Of a stretch of 36,035 nt of DNA, positions 10,115 through 33,840 are shown piece after piece. The DNA is from a virus. The stretch is taken from IMG/VR virus record IMGVR_UViG_3300020129_000291. The stretch is one strand, 5' to 3'. The first letter of the stretch is position 1; the number at the start of each line of letters is the position of its first letter. The position numbers were made by a program, and so were the translations under genes. Below the pieces are notes generated by a model. That model had not been told where the DNA came from. It saw only the letters and a program-made list of their open reading frames with translations, and did not search any database.

Positions 10115-10972
10115 ATGCAAGAGCGTTTGCTCGATCAACAAATTGAGAGGATGCACCACTTTACGCCGGATGAAATCGCCCTGCTGTTAAAGGCGATTGC
10201 GAACGCGCGGGACAAGGCTATTGTGCATCTGGCGTTGGATCACGGTTTGCGGTCGAGCGAAATCGGACTGCTCGATATTGGCGATTATTTCCCAGGTAAG
10301 ACGCACCTGTGTCCGGACCGGATTGTGCTGAAGCGGGTGAAAGGATCAATCGGCGGCGAAGCAATGCTCGGCCCAGAGGCGACGATAGCGTTACGAAAAT
10401 GGCTTCGGGTTCGCGGGCGCAACGCTGGACCGCTCTTCATCACGCAACGAAGAACGGCTATTTCTCGCAACACCCTCGATGATCTGATGAAAAAATATTG
10501 CGAGAATGCCGGAATCTCGCCGGAAAAGGCCCACTTCCACGCACTGAAGCATACGTGCGCGCTTCAGACGCTGCGGTTGACGCGATCACTCGTCAGCGTC
10601 CAATTGAAACTTGGCTATGCCAGTCTGCAAAGCGCCTTACCGTATGCCAGAGTTCTTCAGTCGGAATTCGAAGGCGTGGCGGCTCGCAGTGTCACGCCAT
10701 CACTTCCAACGGAGTCCGGATATGTGTACTTTGTCGAAACCGAAGACGGCCAGCACGTGAAGATCGGTTTCTCTACACGCCCGCGCCAGCGCTTCACCGG
10801 GTTGGGCACATTGCGGCCAAGTTCGTTCGCCATTCGCCTTATCGGATCGTTTCCGGCCTCGCGCGAAACAGAGTCATGGCTCCATCAAAAATTTGAGAGC
10901 GCCCGCGACAATGGCGAATGGTTCCGGAAGACTCCGGAGCTTGCACGCCTGATTCGAGCGTTGGTCGGATAA
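10115..10972 (+). CDS. Tyrosine recombinase catalytic domain fused to a C-terminal T5orf172/MUG113 (GIY-YIG-like) domain.
   Basis: Residues 1-185 are a paralog of 9408..10064 (HGLRSSE, HFHALKHTC, LGYASLQSALPYARV). Residues ~200-285 read SGYVYFVETEDGQHVKIGFSTRPRQRFTGL...ESWLHQKFESARDNGEWF, the T5orf172 signature. Confidence 0.8.
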   Translation: MQERLLDQQIERMHHFTPDEIALLLKAIANARDKAIVHLALDHGLRSSEIGLLDIGDYFPGKTHLCPDRIVLKRVKGSIGGEAMLGPEATIALRKWLRVRGRNAGPLFITQRRTAISRNTLDDLMKKYCENAGISPEKAHFHALKHTCALQTLRLTRSLVSVQLKLGYASLQSALPYARVLQSEFEGVAARSVTPSLPTESGYVYFVETEDGQHVKIGFSTRPRQRFTGLGTLRPSSFAIRLIGSFPASRETESWLHQKFESARDNGEWFRKTPELARLIRALVG

Positions 10973-25596: not shown

Positions 25597-26826
25597 TTAC
25601 TGCACGATGCGGGTTGCCCATTCAGGACGCGGCGCAGCGTGCCCGTAAAGCACGTCGCATCGGGTAATGAAAAGGTCGTTGATAATGTCGTAATCGCTGA
25701 TGGTGCGGATCGAAACGCCGGTATCGGGGTCTACCGCATTGGCAGCGAAATTGACGCCCGCCGGAATCGCGAGCGGTGCCATACCGATCGTAAACGCGGC
25801 CTGATGGAATGCCAGATTTTGCGGAATCAGCGCGTTTGCGGCGCCGCTGGTGATCGTCAGTGGTGCCCCGGCCGCGGGCGAATTCGTGACGGTCTGGTAC
25901 GGGTTGCGCGGGACGCCTGCGACGATGATCGGCGGATAGATCGGAATCGAGGCGGCGCCGCTGGCGTCGCTCGATACGTCCGCGGTGACCACGAATTTCA
26001 GAAGATCGGATTGCGGATCTCCGGAAACAGCGTTCACTGCGAACACGGTTGGCAGCGTGAAACTATCGCCTTTCTTCAGGCGCAGGCCCGCGGCCGCGGT
26101 GAAGCCGCTTACCAGCAGGGTTGAGCCCGTCTGGCCTGCCGTGGTGACCTGCGGCGCGCCGCCGAGCGGTCCGACAGTGTGGGTCCTGACGTTCTGGTCC
26201 ATGACCCACTCGAACCCTCCCATAATCCCCATGCGGCCGCGTTCGTACTGCTGCTTGACCTGGTTGGAGGACTGGAACAGTCCCTGCGCGGCCTTCAGTG
26301 CGGCGGTCTGCAACTTGGGAGAAATACACATCGTTCGTTTGCCGTCCATCGGGGCGGAAAACAAATCGAGGGTTTCGCCCGCGGCCCAGAACGGGTCAAG
26401 CGTCGTGATCGGTGTCCCCGGTGTGCCTACCTGGTTGCCGGTCGATTGATACGCCATTGTGAGCCCGTCGACGTCGACCTGGTTTGCGAGAGAGACAGCC
26501 GCGGAGTCCAAATAACGATCGCGGAACGCATCGATTGATAGCGTGAGTTCCGCGGAGGTGAACTGGAACGGTACGACTGCCTGCTGGTTGAGGACTAGGA
26601 ATTTCTGGGTTTCAACCGTGTCCTGCGGTGTGATGACACGGCCTTTGGTTACGTTGTAGCGGACCGGATCACGAAGGCGCAGAGTGTCGCCAATTTTGGC
26701 GCCCGTTACTGCGAATTTGTCGTCCCACGTGTGATCGATCGCGCCGCTAAAGCCTAAATTGTTTTTGAAACGAAGCAGAAGTTCATTCGTGATCATCTGA
26801 ATCGTTAGGAGAGTATTGACGGCCAC
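25597..26826 (-). CDS. Major capsid protein (P22 coat-like, HK97 fold).
   Basis: 409 aa and follows the scaffold gene. IQMITNELLLRFKNNLGFSGAIDHTWDDKF...GDTLRLRDPVRY, LKKGDSFTLPTVFAVN and SIRTISDYDIINDLFITRCDVLYG match the P22-type coat family pattern. GTG start after GAAGGGG. Confidence 0.85.
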   Translation of the reverse strand: MAVNTLLTIQMITNELLLRFKNNLGFSGAIDHTWDDKFAVTGAKIGDTLRLRDPVRYNVTKGRVITPQDTVETQKFLVLNQQAVVPFQFTSAELTLSIDAFRDRYLDSAAVSLANQVDVDGLTMAYQSTGNQVGTPGTPITTLDPFWAAGETLDLFSAPMDGKRTMCISPKLQTAALKAAQGLFQSSNQVKQQYERGRMGIMGGFEWVMDQNVRTHTVGPLGGAPQVTTAGQTGSTLLVSGFTAAAGLRLKKGDSFTLPTVFAVNAVSGDPQSDLLKFVVTADVSSDASGAASIPIYPPIIVAGVPRNPYQTVTNSPAAGAPLTITSGAANALIPQNLAFHQAAFTIGMAPLAIPAGVNFAANAVDPDTGVSIRTISDYDIINDLFITRCDVLYGHAAPRPEWATRIVQ

Positions 26827-27771
26827 TTATCGCCCCTTCAATTGCGCCTCCCTCGCTTTCGCCCACCGTTTGAAATCCTTCTGTACATCGGGATCGTTGG
26901 GATCGTCGGAAACGATTTTTCCCGGTCTAGAACTCGGCGGCGGCGGCTTGGGTGCGCCCGATAATTTGGGTTTCCCGTTTTCAGTGGCAGGGGTTTCAAA
27001 CGCGGCCGAGAGTCGGCCCACGGCCATCACTGCGCTTGCCGGTGGCAGGGCAGCGATGCGCTCTAGTTCTTTCGGATTCTTGGCGAGGTGATACAAGAGT
27101 TCGGCGCCGTTGGGGTCTTCTAAGAGCGCCTGACGCGCGGCCAGTACTCCCGGTCCTGCGGGAATCTGTACCGTCTCCATCAAGTCGTCGTAGTCGCTGT
27201 GCGCCTTCCGCGCGGCCTTTTCTTTTCTGGCCCACTCGGTCTGCTCTGTGCGGAGTGCATTCTCGGTGTCCGTTCGCGCCTGCTGTTCCTTTTGCAGTCG
27301 GTCGCGTTCATCCAGTTTCCAGTCCGTCAGCGCTTCCTGATACGCCTCTAAAGTCTGAAAGTCTTCCAGCTTCGGCTTACCGGCAGCGGCTGGTTTCGCG
27401 GGTTCTGAGGGCTTATCCTGCGGCTTCACCGGTTGACCGGCAATCTGTCGCTTCAACTCCTCAACTTCGCGTGTCAGCCTATCGATGCGACGTTGTCGCG
27501 ATCCGCCCCGTTTGGCGGGCGCGCCTTCGTCGCCTTCCTGCGGTTCGTCTTTTTCGTCCCCTGTTTCCTGAGAGTCGTCCGTTTCCGAGTCCGGTTCAGT
27601 TTTGGCCGGTGGTTTTTCAGCCACGGCCGCGGTTGGTTTTTCTTCCTTCTGCTCGGGCAATTCACCCGTATTGCGCCACTTGGCATAGTCCCTGAAATCG
27701 GTTGGAGCATCAGCCGTTGCGACGCCTTCGGTCCCTTGTATGAGCGAAGGGGGTGCTACTTCTTCAGACAT
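26827..27771 (-). CDS. Scaffolding protein.
   Basis: 314 aa, highly charged and acidic, with a long predicted coiled coil. Lies immediately upstream of the coat gene. Confidence 0.6.
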   Translation of the reverse strand: MSEEVAPPSLIQGTEGVATADAPTDFRDYAKWRNTGELPEQKEEKPTAAVAEKPPAKTEPDSETDDSQETGDEKDEPQEGDEGAPAKRGGSRQRRIDRLTREVEELKRQIAGQPVKPQDKPSEPAKPAAAGKPKLEDFQTLEAYQEALTDWKLDERDRLQKEQQARTDTENALRTEQTEWARKEKAARKAHSDYDDLMETVQIPAGPGVLAARQALLEDPNGAELLYHLAKNPKELERIAALPPASAVMAVGRLSAAFETPATENGKPKLSGAPKPPPPSSRPGKIVSDDPNDPDVQKDFKRWAKAREAQLKGR

Positions 27772-29027
27772 AAATCAAAATCGAGAATTCGTAATCCGAG
27801 CCATTCCGCGATTTGCGGGACCACGGCATTGCCGAGGCGGCCGAGACGTTTGGTGCGGTTGGTCATCGCGCGGTCCATCCAATCGGGAACCCCATCAGCC
27901 ATTCCACGAATTGGGGATTCAAGCGCCGGCGCGAGGTCTGGCCACTCTGCGAGGATGGCGGGCCATCGGGGATCACTGGGACCTGGCGCGAAACGAGGGA
28001 TTCCGCCCGCGATTCGAGACACTGATCCGTCAGGCGTGCGGAAATGCGGCCGTTCCCCCTGTCGGTCGAATTGTTCGGTGCTGAGGGGTTCGCGTTCGGA
28101 GTCGGCCAAAGGTGCTCCACGAAGTTCTGAAGCTGTTCGCCCTTCGACCCCCCGCCCCGCTCCGTATAGGGCTTCGCGTTCGGCGTCCGGTAGTCGCGTG
28201 CTGCCGGTGTCGGGAACCAGGTCCGCGCCTCCTGGTCGAGACCCATCTCGTCCTTCCGGTCCCCTCCCCTGCTGCGGAAGGAGTCCGTTCCCGGGGTCTG
28301 CCAGTGTTCGGCCTGCTCCGCTATCGTGATCTGGTGGCCGTTGCCTATCGAGGTCTGGCGATTGCGCGGCCCGCCTGATGCCGGCGTATCGGGCGTGCGC
28401 CAGAGGTCCGCGGCTTCGTTCAGATTCGAGACTCCCGCGCCCGTCCGCTCCCCGCTGATCGTGCGCCTGCGGTGTCGGCCAGTTGCGACTGGCACCCGTC
28501 AGCGAGTCCGTTGCCCCCGGATGGTTCCCGCAACTCTCCGAGTCCTCCGCACGGGCCGTGGGCCAGTATTCCGCTACATCGCTCAGGTTCGCCTGACCCA
28601 GGAGTTTCCCTTCCTCCAGCCAGTGACTCGGACGGTAGAATGCTCCGTTGATCTCCGCTACCCCGCGCCCGCTCTGCGTGTCCGTTGTTCGCGGCGTAGG
28701 CCACGATGAAGACGCGCTTTCGGAGGTGACTGGCTCCGAACTCGCTAGCTCGTAAACTGCGCCAGCATCCCACATACCCGAGTCCGGCCAGTTCGCCGAT
28801 AACTCGTCGCATTGCGTCGTAAACAAGGAGCCCTGCGACGTTCTCAATGAGCACGTATCGAGGTCGAAGTTCCCGAACCAACCGGGCGTATTCAAACCAA
28901 AGACCGCTGCGAGTTCCCTCGATACCGGCCTGCTTTCCGGCCTGGGAGAGATCCTGGCAGGGGAATCCGCCGCAGATGAGATCGACGGAGCCGAGTTCGT
29001 CTCCTGTAACGCAGCGAATGTCGCCAT
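27756..29027 (-). pseudogene. C5 DNA methyltransferase, downstream portion in frame 2. Carries WPTP repeats and C-terminal motif X.
   Basis: Contains YWPTARAEDSES, NWPTPQAHDQRG and, at the very end, RLGRLGNAVVPQIAEWLG (motif X). Upstream of ~28700 this frame only shadows the catalytic frame. Confidence 0.5.
27863..28495 (-). pseudogene. C5 DNA methyltransferase, WxTP-repeat segment in frame 3.
   Basis: LWRTPDTP, HWQTPGTD, WFPTPAARD, LWPTPNAN, then RRLNPQFVEWLMGFPIGWT followed by a stop. This continues the repeat series begun in frame 2. Confidence 0.45.
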
Positions 29028-29169
29028 ATCGCTTTACACCGGGCCAGTGTTTTTCGAGGACCTTGACCGCGTAGGGGTCGTTCTCCACCTGCCACCGGCA
29101 CCGGAAGCCCGCACGGTCCAAACCGAGATCAATGCCGCCGATCCCGGTGAACAGGCTTCCATAGGTCAC
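28420..29169 (-). CDS. DNA (cytosine-5)-methyltransferase, N-terminal catalytic portion.
   Basis: LFTGIGG (motif I), GGFPCQDLS (IV), LIENV (VI), RKRVFIVAY (VIII). The GTG start overlaps the portal stop (GTGA). After motif VIII the frame becomes Arg/Gly-rich and stops without motifs IX-X. Confidence 0.8.
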   Translation of the reverse strand: MTYGSLFTGIGGIDLGLDRAGFRCRWQVENDPYAVKVLEKHWPGVKRYGDIRCVTGDELGSVDLICGGFPCQDLSQAGKQAGIEGTRSGLWFEYARLVRELRPRYVLIENVAGLLVYDAMRRVIGELAGLGYVGCWRSLRASEFGASHLRKRVFIVAYAANNGHAERARGSGDQRSILPSESLAGGRETPGSGEPERCSGILAHGPCGGLGELREPSGGNGLADGCQSQLADTAGARSAGSGRARESRI

Positions 29170-31358
29170 GCCATTCCCTGCGGCACCGGCCCTGCAGGTG
29201 CGCCCGCCAGCATCCCGGGCCCTTCAGAACCGGGCGGCGGCATCGGTGGCCCTACGGGCGGCGGAATCGAGGATTCCGCGGCCGCTCCGGTCGCCATGCG
29301 TGCCACCTGAATCTGCAAAGCGGCCATCTCGGCCTTCATCCACGCGATGTTTTCCTGCGCGGTGATGCTGCTATCCGCGGCCGCAATCTTCATCCGTTCG
29401 ATTTGAATTCTGGTGTCCGAATCGAGTGCGGCCTGCCGATCGCTCGATTCGATTTTCATGATCTCGATACGCTCGTTCGATTCCGCCTCGATGCGCTTGC
29501 CGCGGATATCGTCATTCGCCTTACTCAGTGCAGCGCTTAACTGGTCGATCATCTGCGACTGCTGCTGGTTCTGCTGCGCCAGCACTTCGGCCGGTTTCTT
29601 GTCGGCGCCGTCATCGGCCAGCCCGGGCGGCATCGAGCGGCGCAAGCGCTCGGCGATCTTGTCGGCGCCGTTGAAATTGAGATTGTCAAAAACGACGTCC
29701 CCGGCAATCTGCATCAGCGGCGGGTAAACGCGGGCGAGTTCGAGCAGTTGCGATTCCGTCTTTTCCTGCTGGTTCTTGAACGTCGGCCCGATCTTCAGCC
29801 GTACGTCGTACTGGCCGTTTTGGAGGTCGTAACAGCGCTCGATGTTCTGCTCATCCCTGTACCGCTGGTTTACCTTGACAATTTTTTCCGTCATGTCCGC
29901 GCCGAGAATCCGCACCTCGCGCGCGGTGTCGTAAATCTTCGGAATCAGGTCGACCAGGATCGCGCCGCATTGCAGGATCGCGCGGTTCAGGTTGTCCACA
30001 AAATGGAAGTTCGAAAGCTCCATTTGCCCCTGGCGCCGCTGGATCGCGATACCGGAGGTTTCGTTCGACGTGGACCCGAGCGACGCATCATAGACGTTGG
30101 TGGTGGCTTTGATATCGTCGGATGCCTGTGAGGCGCCGATCGAAAGCGCCTGAATCGGCGGCTCGGCCAGGTTGCGCTGCGGTGGCGGTACTGGATTCCC
30201 GGCGATATCGAGCGGTTCGTATTCGAGGTACGACCACGGGATGACATTGGCCGTTGCCCACCGCGGATCGCGGAAGGCGCCCTTGACGCCCACCCACGGC
30301 GCTTTGGTCCCGAGCATGACCGTTTCGGCTTCGGAACTGCGATAGAAGTTATACAGCCGCTGCGGGTCGCGCGCGAACCGGATCAGGCTGAACAGGTAGC
30401 GCGTGTTCTCGATGTACATCTCTTCGCCGAGCGTGGCGAGAATCGGTATCCACTGCCCCTTCCACTCGATTTCGTCCAGAATCTCAACGCCATTGATCCG
30501 GCACATTTTGACGTGCCGTATTTCGTCCTCACGTTCCCGCCGGTCGCCGTTTTCATCGGTCGCGAACGTGACCCCGGGCGGCATTTGTTCGGGGAGGTCT
30601 TCCAGGTACTGGCTGGTCTCGGCGCCGTCCGGCCACCTGATGCCAACCAGCGTTTTCACTTCGATATCGACGTACCAATAATTGGCGATGAGCACGCCCT
30701 CTTTGGTGATCCAGTTGGGCGCGGGGTTGGTCACCCCGTCGAAGAAATTCATCTTCGATACTTCGGTGTCCCCAAACTGGTCTTTGTACTCATCGCGTGG
30801 AATCCACTCAAGTTCAAAGGCCCACTTCATGTCGCTTTTGTCGGCCTTTTTGGCGTACGGGTCGATCAGAATCGCGAACTGGTTTACCACCCGCTCGATG
30901 CGCAATTCCTGGTTGAAGGTCTTGTTGCCGCAGTACCGCGTGGTGACTTTGAAATAGCCGAAACCGCCCTTGGTGCTCTGATCCAGGGAGGTTTCGTAAA
31001 CCTGGTCGGCCTTCGATGCGTACTCGATTTGGCGAATCATGCCCTCGATGACTTCGGCGGTATCGACATCGCCTGAAAGGTCGGCCGGTAGCACTTCCAG
31101 GTCCGGCTTATTCATGCGCGCCTGGTTCGCGACCTGGTTGATTGGCCCGGTCAGTTTGTTGAACGTGAGGCACGGCCGCCGGTTGCCCATGCCCATTGCG
31201 TTGCGCTGGTTGAGGTCGTTCGGGTCCCACTGCTGGCCCGCGGCGAATTCGAGATCAATAATCGCCTCTCGCCGAATGTGGCGCTCGGCCTCTTCGGCGA
31301 GTTCGTATCGCCCCTTTGCGGTTGCGATCAGATCTTTGTCGGCCTTACTAGTTGCCAC
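29166..31358 (-). CDS. Portal protein (P22-like).
   Basis: AIIDLEFAAGQQWDPNDLNQRNAMGMGNRRPCLTFNKLTGPINQVANQARMNKPDLEVLP is the P22-type portal N-terminal signature. Long C-terminal coiled-coil barrel. The GTG at 31358 (VATSKADKD) is the proposed start. The track ORF runs to 31544 through non-protein-like sequence. Confidence 0.8.
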   Translation of the reverse strand: MATSKADKDLIATAKGRYELAEEAERHIRREAIIDLEFAAGQQWDPNDLNQRNAMGMGNRRPCLTFNKLTGPINQVANQARMNKPDLEVLPADLSGDVDTAEVIEGMIRQIEYASKADQVYETSLDQSTKGGFGYFKVTTRYCGNKTFNQELRIERVVNQFAILIDPYAKKADKSDMKWAFELEWIPRDEYKDQFGDTEVSKMNFFDGVTNPAPNWITKEGVLIANYWYVDIEVKTLVGIRWPDGAETSQYLEDLPEQMPPGVTFATDENGDRREREDEIRHVKMCRINGVEILDEIEWKGQWIPILATLGEEMYIENTRYLFSLIRFARDPQRLYNFYRSSEAETVMLGTKAPWVGVKGAFRDPRWATANVIPWSYLEYEPLDIAGNPVPPPQRNLAEPPIQALSIGASQASDDIKATTNVYDASLGSTSNETSGIAIQRRQGQMELSNFHFVDNLNRAILQCGAILVDLIPKIYDTAREVRILGADMTEKIVKVNQRYRDEQNIERCYDLQNGQYDVRLKIGPTFKNQQEKTESQLLELARVYPPLMQIAGDVVFDNLNFNGADKIAERLRRSMPPGLADDGADKKPAEVLAQQNQQQSQMIDQLSAALSKANDDIRGKRIEAESNERIEIMKIESSDRQAALDSDTRIQIERMKIAAADSSITAQENIAWMKAEMAALQIQVARMATGAAAESSIPPPVGPPMPPPGSEGPGMLAGAPAGPVPQGMA

Positions 31359-31376
31359 GGGTTTTATAACTGAGGT

Positions 31377-31559
31377 GTGGCACTGCCAATCACGCAATAC
31401 CCCTTGGACTGGAGCGGCTTTCCTGAACCGTGTGCAGAGGTTCGTTGCATTACATGCGGGACTGCGTACGTGGTGAGTCCTGATTACGACGTTTACGAGC
31501 GGTGCCCGTTCTGCCGATCCCCTTGCATAAAGGCCGTGTTTCAACCGCTATCACGTTAA
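31377..31559 (+). CDS. Candidate zinc-ribbon mini-protein, antisense to the late operon.
   Basis: 60-aa ORF with RCITCG...x17...CPFCR (two zinc knuckles). It exactly fills the ~200-bp gap between the portal start and the upstream mini-gene. The GTG start has a poor SD. Confidence 0.35.
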   Translation: MALPITQYPLDWSGFPEPCAEVRCITCGTAYVVSPDYDVYERCPFCRSPCIKAVFQPLSR

Positions 31560-32277: not shown

Positions 32278-33840
32278 TTAGCCCATCCAAGAACCGCCAC
32301 CGAAGCCGCGGACCCGCTCCGCTTCCGGTTGCGGTGGCGGCGGTGCCACGAACGCCGCAAACGTCAAGGCGAGCGCGTCCCCGAAGTCCGGCGAGGCGAT
32401 ACCCCGCTTCACCATGTCCTGCTTGCTCTCGATCACTAACTGTTCTTTCTGGTTCAGGTGATAGCCCGGGCCCGTGAGATCCGTTTCCAGGATGTTGTCT
32501 GAGGGAATCGCGCCCTTGAGCAGCCACTCCTTCATGCGCGACCACATGTACGCGCGCATGTTCGCCTGGTGCCGGTCGTGTGAAGGTGCGCCAAAGTTCA
32601 CTTCCTGTACGTTGTCGAAACCCATCGCGCGCAGCCGTTCGACGTAGACCGCGCCGAAGGCCGAATCGACAAACATCATTGCGACCTTATGCGTCGGCCG
32701 CCGGTCGCTCAAAATCTCGGTCAGTTTCGCCAGCATCACGCTACGGTCGCGCGTATCCTCGCCCGAAATTCGGATTGCGGGGATAGTGCGCGCGTCGAGA
32801 CCGCGGCGGAAGGCAATCACGTTCCATGCTCCGGAGCCATGCGTCTCCCGCCGCGCCTCACCGGTTGGCGCGTCGCTTCGCGCACCCGGTAGATTGAACA
32901 TTCCGCCGCGGCCTGCGACGTCAAAACCCGCAATGAGCGGATCATCGGGAAAACTGGACGGCTCGCGCAACTGCGCCTGCCAGACTCTCTCCTGGTCGAT
33001 GTATTGCAATTCGCCTGCTCTGGGTGCGATGCCGCGGACGCGGACCCGTACAAAGTCGGAATCCTCGCCGTAGTCGCGTATCCACTCATCGAGAAGTGAC
33101 TTGTTCGTGAACCGGGCGGTGCGGCTGTCAATGATCTTTTGCCGCCACCGGTCCCGTTCATTGCCGAATACGATGCGGTGAAATTTGCCGGTGTTTCTGG
33201 TGGGGTTGCCCCACGCAAAAATCATCGGCTCGCCGTCCGTTAACCCGCCCTCCGCGGCGTTCCAAATCTCATCGGGGATGGCGCTCGCTTCATCGAACAG
33301 GTACCAACTGGTCGACCGCGCCGCATGCTGCCCGTGAAAGGCTTCGGAGTTCTCTCGCCGGCAGGTTTGCGCGGTGACAAACCAAGACTCCGGAGCCGCC
33401 TTGGCGAATATCTTTTCCTGTCCGGCCTGGAACCAGTGCGCGGTGATGCACATGCGCGTCCACTTGAGGATCGCGGGCCAGGTCTTTGTCGAGAGTTGCG
33501 CAAACGTGTTGCTGGTGACGGTGCCCTGTGAGTTGGGACGGGTCGAAAGAATCCAGTTGCAGAGCCACCCTGAGCATGTACTCTTTCCGATGCCGTGGCC
33601 TGAACTGATGGCCTGACGCAGCGGCAGTACGCCATTGAGCCCGTCGAAGCCGCGGCGCCGCACCTCCGCACCAATCTCGGCGAGTAGTTCCCGTTGCCAG
33701 TCGTCCGGCCCGTCATAGGCTTCCAGCGGCCCGCGTTCGCGCCAGGGGTAGGCGGCCAGGACGAAGCCGAGCGGATCATCTTTAAACTGCGCGATGAAAT
33801 CAACGAGTTCGCCTTCGATCGCGACTGCCGAAAGGCTCAT
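32278..33840 (-). CDS. terL: Terminase large subunit.
   Basis: Walker A SSGHGIGKST, Walker B WYLFDEAS, and a C-terminal nuclease-like half with FDVAGRG and MMFVDSAFG. 520 aa, upstream of the portal. Confidence 0.9.
   Translation of the reverse strand: MSLSAVAIEGELVDFIAQFKDDPLGFVLAAYPWRERGPLEAYDGPDDWQRELLAEIGAEVRRRGFDGLNGVLPLRQAISSGHGIGKSTCSGWLCNWILSTRPNSQGTVTSNTFAQLSTKTWPAILKWTRMCITAHWFQAGQEKIFAKAAPESWFVTAQTCRRENSEAFHGQHAARSTSWYLFDEASAIPDEIWNAAEGGLTDGEPMIFAWGNPTRNTGKFHRIVFGNERDRWRQKIIDSRTARFTNKSLLDEWIRDYGEDSDFVRVRVRGIAPRAGELQYIDQERVWQAQLREPSSFPDDPLIAGFDVAGRGGMFNLPGARSDAPTGEARRETHGSGAWNVIAFRRGLDARTIPAIRISGEDTRDRSVMLAKLTEILSDRRPTHKVAMMFVDSAFGAVYVERLRAMGFDNVQEVNFGAPSHDRHQANMRAYMWSRMKEWLLKGAIPSDNILETDLTGPGYHLNQKEQLVIESKQDMVKRGIASPDFGDALALTFAAFVAPPPPQPEAERVRGFGGGSWMG

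What the first reader, a model, noticed from the sequence alone, without database searches (positions are those of the whole stretch)
27756..29169. C5 DNA methyltransferase inside the head operon with conserved motifs spread over three reading frames
Seen in sequence:
- Frame 1 (28420..29169, translationally coupled to the portal by GTGA) carries motifs I, IV, VI and VIII, then degenerates and stops.
- A series of W-x-T-P repeat units starts in frame 2 (WPTARAED, NWPTPQAHD). It continues in frame 3 (LWRTPDTP, HWQTPGTD, WFPTPAARD, LWPTPNAN, then RRLNPQFVEWLMGFPIGWT and a stop).
- Motif X (LGNAVVPQIAEWLG) lies about a dozen codons later, back in frame 2.
- The LAD.. strings in the neighbouring frame are simply shadows of TGG-CCN-ACN-CC. 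The W-x-T-P frames are therefore the ones that look selected.

Inference: a canonical enzyme needs at least two, probably three, frame changes within 1.4 kb. One falls near the short C/G runs around 28430-28455. This could reflect a decaying moron, assembly indels, strain heterogeneity, or recoding that yields several products.

Separately, a methyltransferase between portal and scaffold is itself an unusual placement.
Basis: partly seen in the sequence, partly recalled or inferred. Interest (0 to 1): 0.65.

Follow-up and report, generated by a model that had tools for sequence, protein, structure and literature searches.

The report
Broken two-in-one phage methylase gene
This is a phage cytosine-DNA methylase gene of the "gene within a gene" kind, in which a second subunit is read from another frame inside the first; in this copy a 35-base deletion has thrown both frames out of register, so its motifs appear scattered over three frames.

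Summary
On the minus strand of 27756-29169, C5-methyltransferase motifs I-VIII, the W-x-T-P repeats with motif IX, and motif X lie in three different frames.

The three "frame changes" have two separate causes.

(1) One is a genuine lesion. A near-identical contig from another metagenome (X4) carries 35 extra bases at 28446-28452, between two copies of a 7-mer. Restoring them gives two complete ORFs.

(2) The other two are the normal architecture of this gene family.
- A long ORF, alpha, holds motifs I-VIII, a low-complexity linker and motif X.
- A second ORF, beta, is nested in the +1 frame and holds the W-x-T-P modules and motif IX.
- In 81 related loci (GC 0.42-0.69) the +1 frame is open over at least 60% of alpha in 77. 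The +2 frame never is.
- Synonymous sites of alpha are constrained where beta overlaps it. The frame under purifying selection alternates along the gene: alpha, beta, alpha, beta, alpha.

This architecture was shown experimentally for M.EcoHK31I, where a beta chain carrying motif IX is encoded inside alpha in another frame and both chains are required. No recoding is needed.

The window carries a probably inactive deletion allele of such a gene, sitting in a variable cargo slot between portal and scaffold. The nested beta ORF is very widespread, and it carried no annotation in the few public records inspected.

The parts
28420..29169 (-). Truncated alpha ORF of the window allele (249 aa). It holds the catalytic domain with motifs I, IV, VI and VIII down to about 28696, followed by out-of-register sequence created by the deletion. 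In the intact allele alpha runs on to 27756 (482 aa).
   Evidence: PF00145 positions 1-164 of 324, E 2.6e-50; motif coordinates; intact allele.
27756..29027 (-). Chimeric 423-aa ORF created by the deletion. Its first part is the N-terminal half of beta (ATG at 29027, the alpha-overlapping region, and W-x-T-P modules 1-3). At 28446-28452 this is fused to the C-terminal part of alpha (linker, FAPGPSDPRWP block, motif X).
   Evidence: Translations. After restoring the 35 nt, the two halves fall into different ORFs.
28446..28452 (.). Deletion scar. A single copy of the 7-mer CGCTCCC remains. The intact allele has CGCTCCC + GCGCGGCCGCTATCTGTTCCGGGGTCTT + CGCTCCC, which is 35 more bases. The deletion shifts both ORFs by +1.
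   Evidence: The X4 contig (34,953 nt) is identical over 27700-29200 except for this insertion. The X2 and X7 contigs match the window. The restored codons (KTPEQIAAARER) align with relatives L035 and L036.
27863..28495 (-). Orphaned C-terminal half of beta (210-aa ORF). It holds W-x-T-P modules 4-7 (28379-28402, 28280-28303, 28193-28216, 28085-28108) and motif IX, RRLNPQFVEWLMGFPIGWT (27872-27928). In the intact allele it is continuous with the beta ORF that starts at 29027 (about 399 aa).
   Evidence: phrog_1008 'DNA methyltransferase', E 1e-17. Beta-frame third positions take 59% of substitutions in motif IX.
28746..28793 (-). Beta-frame NWPDSGMWDAGAVYEL, read from the same bases that encode alpha's motif VII/VIII region (..ELAGLGYVGCW..). 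This is the stretch of strongest synonymous-site constraint on alpha.
   Evidence: The ratio of observed to expected codon identity reaches 1.9-2.05 at alpha codons 111-130. Examples: Gly131 is GGG in 76 of 79, Ala128 is GCC in 63 of 65, Tyr132 is TAT in 52 of 68.
27921..27992 (-). Alpha-frame conserved block FAPGPSDPRWPAILAEWPDLAPAL, lying inside the beta overlap.
   Evidence: Among 6 relatives, 116 of 182 pairwise differences fall at alpha third positions.
27795..27836 (-). Motif X (LGNAVVPQIAEWLG), in the alpha frame of the intact allele. It forms the start of the C-terminal helix of the catalytic domain.
   Evidence: The AlphaFold model of alpha homolog P0009 has pLDDT 77-86 for this helix. 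An X-like motif lies in the last 60 residues of alpha in 79 of 81 loci.
28458..28703 (-). W-x-T-P modules 1-3 of beta: WPTPRTTD (28680-28703), WPTARAED (28542-28565) and WPTPQAHD (28458-28481).
   Evidence: The module alignment with relatives shows whole-module gain and loss.

Best explanation
The locus is a cargo ('moron') gene for a two-polypeptide C5 DNA methyltransferase of the M.EcoHK31I type. The window carries an allele of it broken by a 35-bp deletion.

Intact allele (seen in metagenome run X4):
- One stretch of DNA encodes two complete proteins in two frames.
- Alpha (482 aa) is the catalytic large domain. It has motifs I-VIII, a long low-complexity linker, a conserved FAPGPSDPRWP..LAPAL element and the motif X helix.
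- Beta (about 399 aa from ATG 29027) is nested entirely inside alpha in the +1 frame. It has an N-terminal region read over alpha's motifs VI-VIII, seven W-x-T-P modules lying where a target-recognition domain would be, and motif IX.
- Beta thus supplies what a canonical enzyme has between motifs VIII and X. The two chains would assemble into the active enzyme, which would methylate phage DNA.

Status of each step:
- Shown here: both ORFs are conserved and under selection, and the deletion is real.
- Inferred from M.EcoHK31I: beta is translated separately and the two chains assemble.
- Inferred from position only: the W-x-T-P modules read the target sequence.

Window allele:
- Slippage between two CGCTCCC repeats removed 35 bp and shifted both ORFs at once.
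- Alpha stops at 249 aa without motif X.
- The first half of beta is fused to alpha's tail.
- The second half of beta, with motif IX, has lost its start.
- The enzyme is therefore most likely inactive.
For: Deletion:
- The X4 contig is identical over 1.5 kb except for 35 extra nt at 28446-28452. X2 and X7 contigs match the window.
- Restoring the 35 nt yields both complete ORFs.
- The restored residues align with relatives.

Nested architecture in relatives:
- L018, L032, L035, L036 and L037 each have a continuous alpha and a continuous nested beta.
- Among 81 loci at 50-88% identity, the +1 frame is open over at least 60% of alpha in 77, and the +2 frame in none. Motif X lies in the alpha frame in 79. 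The W-x-T-P-type motif IX is never in the alpha frame.
- The arrangement also holds in lower-GC replicons (gene GC 0.44-0.48) of Bacillus, Leptospira and Acinetobacter.

Selection on both frames:
- In synonymous shuffles of alpha codons 60-158, +1-frame stops are 15 observed against 134 expected. +2-frame stops are 248 against 262.
- Synonymous-site codon identity, observed over expected, is about 1.0 in alpha codons 1-50 and 1.3-2.05 in codons 91-140. Extreme codon choices occur there, such as GGG in 76 of 79.
- The phase of substitutions alternates along the gene: alpha, beta, alpha, beta, alpha.

Identity of the motifs:
- Beta motif IX joined to alpha motif X matches PF00145 positions 230-322 (22.8 bits). 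The alpha C-terminus alone gives nothing.
- The AlphaFold model of alpha is confident in residues 1-160 and in the motif X helix. It is below pLDDT 50 across the linker.
- That model matches M.HaeIII and M.HhaI over about 163 aligned columns only.

Precedent:
[quoted passage not shown] Silent removal of the beta start codons abolishes methylation, and alpha and beta expressed from separate plasmids restore it (PMC2836561; PMC3404938).
Against: - There is no direct evidence that beta is translated in this phage. No RNA run holds the stretch, and there is no proteomics.
- No clear Shine-Dalgarno sequence precedes any candidate beta start in the window.
- Beta alone is predicted poorly by AlphaFold. 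Mean pLDDT is 44, and only the motif IX helix is confident. It has no hit in PDB, Pfam or NCBIfam.
The literature places the TRD of that enzyme in alpha, not beta.
- C5 methyltransferase fragments can complement each other (PMC3404938). Residual activity of the deletion allele is therefore not excluded.
Confidence: 0.75

Rival explanations
1. Programmed recoding. Ribosomes start at the alpha GTG and read motifs I-VIII. They shift +1 at the motif VIII/W-x-T-P junction, read the repeats and motif IX, then shift -1 to read motif X. The product is one canonical chain.
For: The motif order I-VIII, repeats, IX, X is collinear, and the junctions are tight. WPTP overlaps the end of motif VIII, and motif X starts 12 codons after motif IX. 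The joined IX+X piece matches PF00145.
Against: - Beta stays open and under selection for 60 or more codons upstream of the supposed +1 site.
- Alpha stays open for up to about 390 codons downstream of that site. It also contains an alpha-selected block that the recoded product would skip.
- By eye, there are no homopolymer runs or obvious slippery sequences at either junction in the window.
- In M.EcoHK31I two separate polypeptides are made and both are needed (PMC2836561).
Confidence: 0.07
2. The whole pattern is decay or sequencing error. On this view the gene is a once single-frame methylase that has accumulated three indels.
For: One indel is real. A few relatives also carry indel-shifted or rearranged versions: L044, L080 and L042.
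Against: - The two other 'shifts' sit at the same positions in about 80 loci from very different phages and plasmids. Both frames are intact there.
- Independent assemblies give identical sequence.
- The neighbouring portal, scaffold and coat ORFs are intact.
Confidence: 0.03
3. Only alpha is a gene. On this view the beta-frame features are passive shadows of conserved alpha codons, or of GC-rich composition.
For: The first roughly 44 codons of the beta ORF evolve as alpha dictates: 50% of differences fall at the alpha third position. Beta alone does not fold confidently in AlphaFold.
Against: - In the repeat region and in motif IX, substitutions concentrate at beta third positions (42% and 59%).
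- Alpha is low-complexity there and is predicted disordered.
- The +1 frame is also open in genes of GC 0.42-0.48, while the +2 frame is full of stops.
- Alpha alone lacks motif IX.
Confidence: 0.03
4. The deletion allele is still functional. Alpha' (motifs I-VIII), the beta'::alpha-tail chimera (which carries motif X) and the orphan motif IX fragment would assemble by fragment complementation.
For: - Split C5 methyltransferases complement each other (M.AquI, and fragments of M.BspRI, M.BsuRI, M.HhaI and M.SssI; PMC3404938).
- The allele sits on contigs from X2 and X7 at assembler depths of about 22 and 5, as well as in the window.
- L042 naturally carries motif X on the beta frame.
Against: The motif IX fragment has lost its start. 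Only a GTG at 28495 is available, and no ribosome-binding site was examined there. Three-piece assembly has no precedent. Loss of a cargo gene is the simpler reading.
Confidence: 0.12

Closest known systems
M.EcoHK31I (E. coli HK31, recognises YGGCCR). Original report: Lee, Kam & Shaw 1995, Nucleic Acids Res 23:103. Described in PMC2836561 and PMC3404938.
   Same: - It is a C5 methyltransferase made of two polypeptides.
- Beta is encoded entirely inside the alpha gene in a different reading frame.
[quoted passage not shown]
- Internal Met codons can serve as beta starts, and the beta N-terminus is needed for association with alpha.
- All the architectural features are met by the intact allele and its relatives.
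   Different: - Beta here is much longer (about 399 aa) and carries seven W-x-T-P modules.
- The pattern of selection places the protein-like 'variable region' in beta, whereas the literature assigns the TRD of M.EcoHK31I to alpha.
- The gene here is an orphan cargo gene in a phage head operon, not part of a restriction-modification pair.
- Sequence homology to M.EcoHK31I was not tested.
- The window copy is broken.
M.AquI (Karreman & de Waard 1990, cited in PMC3404938)
   Same: It is a natural two-subunit C5 methyltransferase that is split in the variable region.
   Different: In M.AquI the small subunit carries motifs IX and X. My recollection, not checked here, is that its two ORFs overlap only at their ends. 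Here motif X returns to the alpha frame and beta is fully nested. One relative, L042, does have the AquI-like layout.
Multispecific Bacillus phage C5 methyltransferases (SPR, phi3T, rho11s). This comparison rests on my own knowledge, not on anything tested here.
   Same: They are phage-borne orphan C5 methyltransferases. The region between motifs VIII and IX is a tandem array of short modules whose number varies between relatives.
   Different: Those enzymes are single chains in one frame, with TRDs that have been defined experimentally. Whether the W-x-T-P modules each read a target is unknown.
Programmed-frameshift genes (prfB, dnaX, phage tail chaperone G/GT). This comparison rests on my own knowledge.
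   Same: Conserved protein motifs of one function are spread over two frames of one locus.
   Different: Those genes have a conserved slippery site, and the zero frame closes soon after it. Here both frames stay open for hundreds of codons and no slippery site was seen.

Membership tests
C5 DNA methyltransferase (Pfam PF00145 / TIGR00675 dcm) | N-terminal catalytic half with motifs I (FxGxG), IV (PCQ), VI (ENV) and VIII | tested here: met
   PF00145 positions 1-164 of 324, E 2.6e-50. Homolog P0009 matches TIGR00675, E 5e-39. The AlphaFold model matches M.HaeIII and M.HhaI, E 1e-13.
C5 DNA methyltransferase (Pfam PF00145 / TIGR00675 dcm) | C-terminal motifs IX and X on the same polypeptide as motifs I-VIII | tested here: not met
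   Motif IX is in a different frame from motifs I-VIII and X, both in the window and in about 80 relatives. The IX+X piece matches PF00145 positions 230-322 only when the two frames are joined.
M.EcoHK31I-type nested two-polypeptide C5 methyltransferase | Alpha ORF carries motifs I-VIII and X in one frame | tested here: met
   Met in the intact allele (482-aa ORF) and in 79 of 81 relatives. Not met in the window allele itself, because of the 35-bp deletion.
M.EcoHK31I-type nested two-polypeptide C5 methyltransferase | Beta ORF lies entirely within alpha, same strand, different frame | tested here: met
   In the intact allele beta occupies alpha codons 48-446 in the +1 frame. The same holds in L018, L032, L035, L036 and L037. 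The +1 frame is open over at least 60% of alpha in 77 of 81 loci.
M.EcoHK31I-type nested two-polypeptide C5 methyltransferase | Beta carries motif IX | tested here: met
   RRLNPQFVEWLMGFPIGWT lies at the beta C-terminus. Selection there is beta-phase. Pfam matches the joined IX+X piece.
M.EcoHK31I-type nested two-polypeptide C5 methyltransferase | Both polypeptides are made, and both are required for methylation | not testable with these tools
   Support is indirect only: purifying selection acts on both frames. No RNA run holds the stretch.
M.EcoHK31I-type nested two-polypeptide C5 methyltransferase | Sequence homology to the M.EcoHK31I alpha and beta chains | not tested
The 1995 paper is not held. 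A blastn of a short family member against E. coli genomes found nothing.
M.AquI-type split methyltransferase | The small subunit carries both motifs IX and X | tested here: not met
   Motif X is in the alpha frame. Only relative L042 has IX and X together in the beta frame.
Programmed ribosomal frameshift gene | Conserved slippery site at the junction, with frames not otherwise maintained | tested here: not met
   By eye, no homopolymer or slippery run lies at either junction in the window. Conservation of a slippery site across relatives was not tested. Both frames are maintained far beyond the junctions.

The most novel reading that the evidence does not exclude
The nested beta ORF would not be a curiosity of one E. 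coli enzyme. It would be the universal second subunit of a very large clade of phage, prophage and plasmid C5 methyltransferases.
- About 22,000 representatives of 50%-identity clusters match the beta profile.
- Every beta-like protein whose DNA was inspected (7 distinct loci plus the window allele) lay inside an alpha ORF, and in some loci the two ORFs overlap for nearly their whole length of about 490 codons.

On this reading beta, not alpha, carries the target-recognising part. That part would be an array of 1-9 exchangeable W-x-T-P modules that sets, and may multiply, the enzyme's specificity. The annotated public records inspected name only alpha, so the specificity-determining half of these enzymes would be missing from them.
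Probability: 0.45. Interest if true: 0.7.

Novelty: new member of a known kind. Interest (0 to 1): 0.55.

Why it matters
For this window, the apparent three-frame puzzle reduces to one ordinary deletion plus a known, though little-known, gene architecture. No recoding needs to be invoked.

More generally, the survey done to solve it points to three things.
- The M.EcoHK31I arrangement is common in phage-borne cytosine methylases. A subunit of 200-500 residues is read from the +1 frame inside the catalytic subunit.
- The arrangement is conserved from Bacillus to Mycobacterium phages.
- In the annotated public records inspected (Che9d and three plasmids), and in the feature listings of about 20 further tblastn hits, only alpha is annotated. 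The one exception seen is Microcystis phage Mwe-JY08, which had no feature at all under the match.

This affects prediction of phage methylation specificity and of anti-restriction capacity. It also provides one of the longest and best-replicated same-strand dual-coding genes in prokaryotic viruses. That makes it a natural test case for methods that detect overlapping genes.

Tried and rejected
- AlphaFold on beta (P0062 with an 11-sequence alignment) gave mean pLDDT 44. I therefore made no fold search and draw no structural claim for the W-x-T-P modules.
- Beta against PDB sequences, NCBIfam and Pfam gave no hits. Only PHROG 1008, 'DNA methyltransferase', matched.
- A search for RNA runs found none.
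- I looked for M.EcoHK31I relatives in E. coli genomes by blastn with a short family member and found no match. The 1995 paper is not held, and no supplement is held for PMC2836561.
- My first stop-avoidance test for alpha in the middle region (test A) is circular, because the region was defined by the open alpha ORF. I use only its expected values: 211.8 stops summed over 78 loci, about 2.7 per locus. I set these against the independent count that alpha reaches motif X in 79 of 81 loci.
- Mycobacteriophage Llama gp74/gp75 looked like a conserved split. It is a split annotation of the short gene that is a single CDS in Che9d. The cause of the split was not examined.
- The conserved ATG at alpha codon 48 as a universal beta start is rejected. 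The Tyr codon there is TAT in 20 and TAC in 20, and start positions vary between loci.
- Literature searches for a description of this architecture in phages found none in the held library.
Full report
**Setting.**
- The window looks like a temperate P22-like phage. Its head-gene order matches known ~36-kb podoviruses such as EBPR podovirus 1 and Rhodoferax phage P26218.
- An integrase-like ORF lies at 10115-10972, and the large terminase at 32278-33840.
- On the minus strand the order is P22-type portal (29166-31544), the region in question (27756-29169), scaffold (26827-27771) and P22-type coat (25597-26826).

A three-frame translation of the minus strand and motif coordinates show the following.
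- Frame 'offset 1' starts at a GTG that overlaps the portal stop (GTGA, 29169-29166). It carries motifs I, IV, VI and VIII and matches PF00145 positions 1-164 of 324, E 2.6e-50. It then becomes Arg/Gly/Ala-rich and stops at 28420.
- Frame 'offset 2' is open from ATG 29027 to 27756. It carries three W-x-T-P units and, at its end, motif X.
- Frame 'offset 0' (28495-27863) carries four more W-x-T-P units and RRLNPQFVEWLMGFPIGWT.
- Joined to motif X, that last segment matches the C-terminal part of PF00145 (positions 230-322, 22.8 bits, E 7e-5). The single-frame C-terminus gives no match.

**One frame change is a deletion.**
- Several independent soil and rhizosphere metagenomes hold this sequence.
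- A 12.1-kb contig of run X2 is identical to the window over 27700-29200.
- A 34,953-nt contig of run X4 is identical too, except that at 28446-28452 it has 28 extra bases plus a second copy of the 7-mer CGCTCCC, 35 bases in all.
- A contig of X7 has the window form. In X8 the contigs break at 28431 and 28446. This is consistent with both forms being present but does not prove it.
- Putting the 35 bases back restores two complete ORFs at once: a 482-aa ORF from the GTG at 29169 to the stop at 27756, and a nested ORF from ATG 29027 to the stop at 27863.
- The restored residues (..HDQRGAKTPEQIAAARERTGAGVSNL..) align with relatives L035 and L036. The longer form is therefore ancestral, and the window carries a deletion between short direct repeats.

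**The other two frame changes are the family's normal architecture.**
- The closest protein relatives fall into two classes. The first class is long single-frame proteins: motifs I-VIII, a low-complexity middle, FAPGPSDPRWPxILRERPDLAPAL and motif X. The second class has no Pfam domain: W-x-T-P repeats ending in RRLNPRFVEWLMGFPxGWTE.
- In every locus whose DNA I read, both are encoded by the same bases. The second is nested in the +1 frame of the first (L018, L032, L035, L036, L037).
- Among 81 loci recovered with the catalytic domain (50-88% identity, GC 0.42-0.69), the +1 frame is open over at least 60% of the long ORF in 77, and the +2 frame in none.
- A motif X-like string lies at the end of the long ORF in 79 of the 81. 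A motif IX of this type was found in the +1 frame in 49 and never in the frame of motifs I-VIII.
- The same nesting is seen in genes of GC 0.44-0.48 on plasmids of Bacillus tropicus, Leptospira interrogans and Acinetobacter baumannii. Only the long ORF is annotated there.
- A profile of the nested protein finds 22,036 cluster representatives (E <= 0.001) among 1.84 billion proteins. Nine long ones that might have been fusions to a catalytic domain carry no such domain in their own frame. For the two whose DNA I read, the ORF proved to be nested in a full alpha ORF, with nearly complete overlap of about 490 codons.

**Both frames are under selection.**
- When synonymous codons of the long ORF are shuffled over codons 60-158, the +1 frame should contain 134 stops across 79 loci. 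It contains 15, and 71 loci have none. The +2 frame contains 248 against 262 expected.
- Synonymous-site codon identity in the long ORF equals expectation in codons 1-50. It rises to 1.3-2.05 times expectation in codons 91-140.
- Codon choices there make sense only for the +1 frame: Gly131 is GGG in 76 of 79, Ala128 is GCC in 63 of 65, Tyr132 is TAT in 52 of 68. Together they spell WPxSGMMRNG in beta.
- In six close relatives the phase of substitutions alternates along the gene. It is alpha-dominant over the catalytic domain and beta-dominant over the W-x-T-P modules (42% of differences at beta third positions). It is alpha-dominant in the FAPGPSDPRWP block (116 of 182 differences at alpha third positions). 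It is beta-dominant in motif IX (59%) and alpha-dominant in motif X.
- Shuffling beta's synonymous codons predicts about 2.7 alpha-frame stops per locus in the middle region. Yet alpha reaches motif X in 79 of 81 loci.

**What it is.**
- This architecture has an experimentally characterised precedent. [quoted passage not shown] - In that enzyme, removing the beta start codons by changes silent in alpha abolishes methylation in vivo. Alpha and beta expressed from separate plasmids restore it. N-terminal truncation of beta weakens its association with alpha (PMC2836561; PMC3404938).
- The division also matches the two structural domains of C5 methyltransferases. Alpha equals the large domain (I-VIII plus X), and beta equals what lies between VIII and X.
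- The AlphaFold model of an alpha homolog is confident in residues 1-160 and in the motif X helix. It is below pLDDT 50 across the linker. It resembles M.HaeIII and M.HhaI over about 163 aligned columns only.
- I therefore read the intact gene as a two-subunit enzyme that needs no recoding.
- A double programmed frameshift is disfavoured for three reasons. Beta is open and selected upstream of the supposed +1 site. Alpha is open and in part selected downstream of it. No slippery sequence is apparent at either junction in the window.

**The window allele.**
- The deletion shifts both ORFs by +1.
- Alpha ends after 249 residues without motif X.
- The first half of beta is fused to alpha's tail, giving the 423-aa ORF.
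- The second half of beta, with motif IX, is left as a 210-aa ORF without its start.
- Loss of activity is the simplest expectation. Fragment complementation keeps a small doubt open.

**Placement.**
- In 24 loci with a related portal, the portal-scaffold gap is about 0, 300 or 600 nt. In L018 it is about 970 nt and holds a methylase.
- A distant P22-like phage (L037, portal 27% identical) has the same kind of methylase at the same place.
- The site is thus a recurrent cargo slot.

**Limits.**
- Translation of beta is inferred, not observed.
- Beta alone does not give a confident structure.
- The role of the W-x-T-P modules in target recognition rests on their position only.
- Homology to M.EcoHK31I itself was not tested.
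- I found no paper in the held library that describes this architecture as widespread. That is not proof that none exists.

Noticed in passing
window 27756-29169, compared with L001-L024 and L037: The portal-scaffold junction is a variable cargo slot. Gaps are about 0, 300, 600, 970 (a methylase, in L018) and 1416 nt (the window). A distant P22-like phage, L037, holds the same kind of nested methylase there. The contents of the ~300 and ~600 nt inserts are unknown. They do not match the methylase.
   Followed up: partly
L055:3001-4160, L102:3001-4450, L075:3001-4180: A different C5 methylase subfamily has RRLTPxECERLQGFPD as its motif IX. It also keeps the +1 frame open for 180-315 codons over the catalytic domain. 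There it encodes a conserved CSLSDILE..VPxKYxLSxKAxxGILRRAxKRGRxLP string. In L075 motif IX is again in the +1 frame. This may be a second family of nested ORFs.
   Followed up: no
L121:324-1799 and L122:34-1494: Beta-like ORFs of 486-491 codons overlap almost the whole of an alpha ORF of about the same length. This is among the longest same-strand overlaps I have seen. Another long beta-like protein, P0229, has a LAGLIDADG-like segment (..AGLVDGEGC..) inserted in its N-terminal part. Its DNA was not examined.
   Followed up: partly
L118 (Bacillus tropicus plasmid NZ_CP085401, dcm), L119 (Leptospira interrogans p2), L120 (Acinetobacter baumannii pPM193665_2): The nested beta ORF is present in methylase genes of GC 0.44-0.48 on plasmids of cultured bacteria. 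Only alpha is annotated. The same is true under the annotated methylase CDS of Acidovorax phages Alfacinha1/3, Synechococcus phage S-H1 and Mycobacterium phage Che9d.
   Followed up: partly
L042:3001-4000, L044:3001-4000, L080:3001-4600: Three loci are exceptions to the architecture. In L042 the beta frame carries the repeats, motif IX and motif X, while alpha stops after motif VIII (M.AquI-like). L044 is shifted by an indel, like the window. L080 alpha runs on into unrelated sequence with no motif X-like string.
   Followed up: no
L116 (Mycobacterium phage Llama genes 74/75) compared with L117 (Che9d gene 80): Llama and its relatives annotate the short methylase as two CDS. Che9d has one CDS of 252 aa. 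The cause of the split was not examined.
   Followed up: partly
window 10115-10972: An integrase-like ORF (phrog_216 and phrog_1) suggests that the phage is temperate. No attachment site or tRNA was looked for.
   Followed up: no
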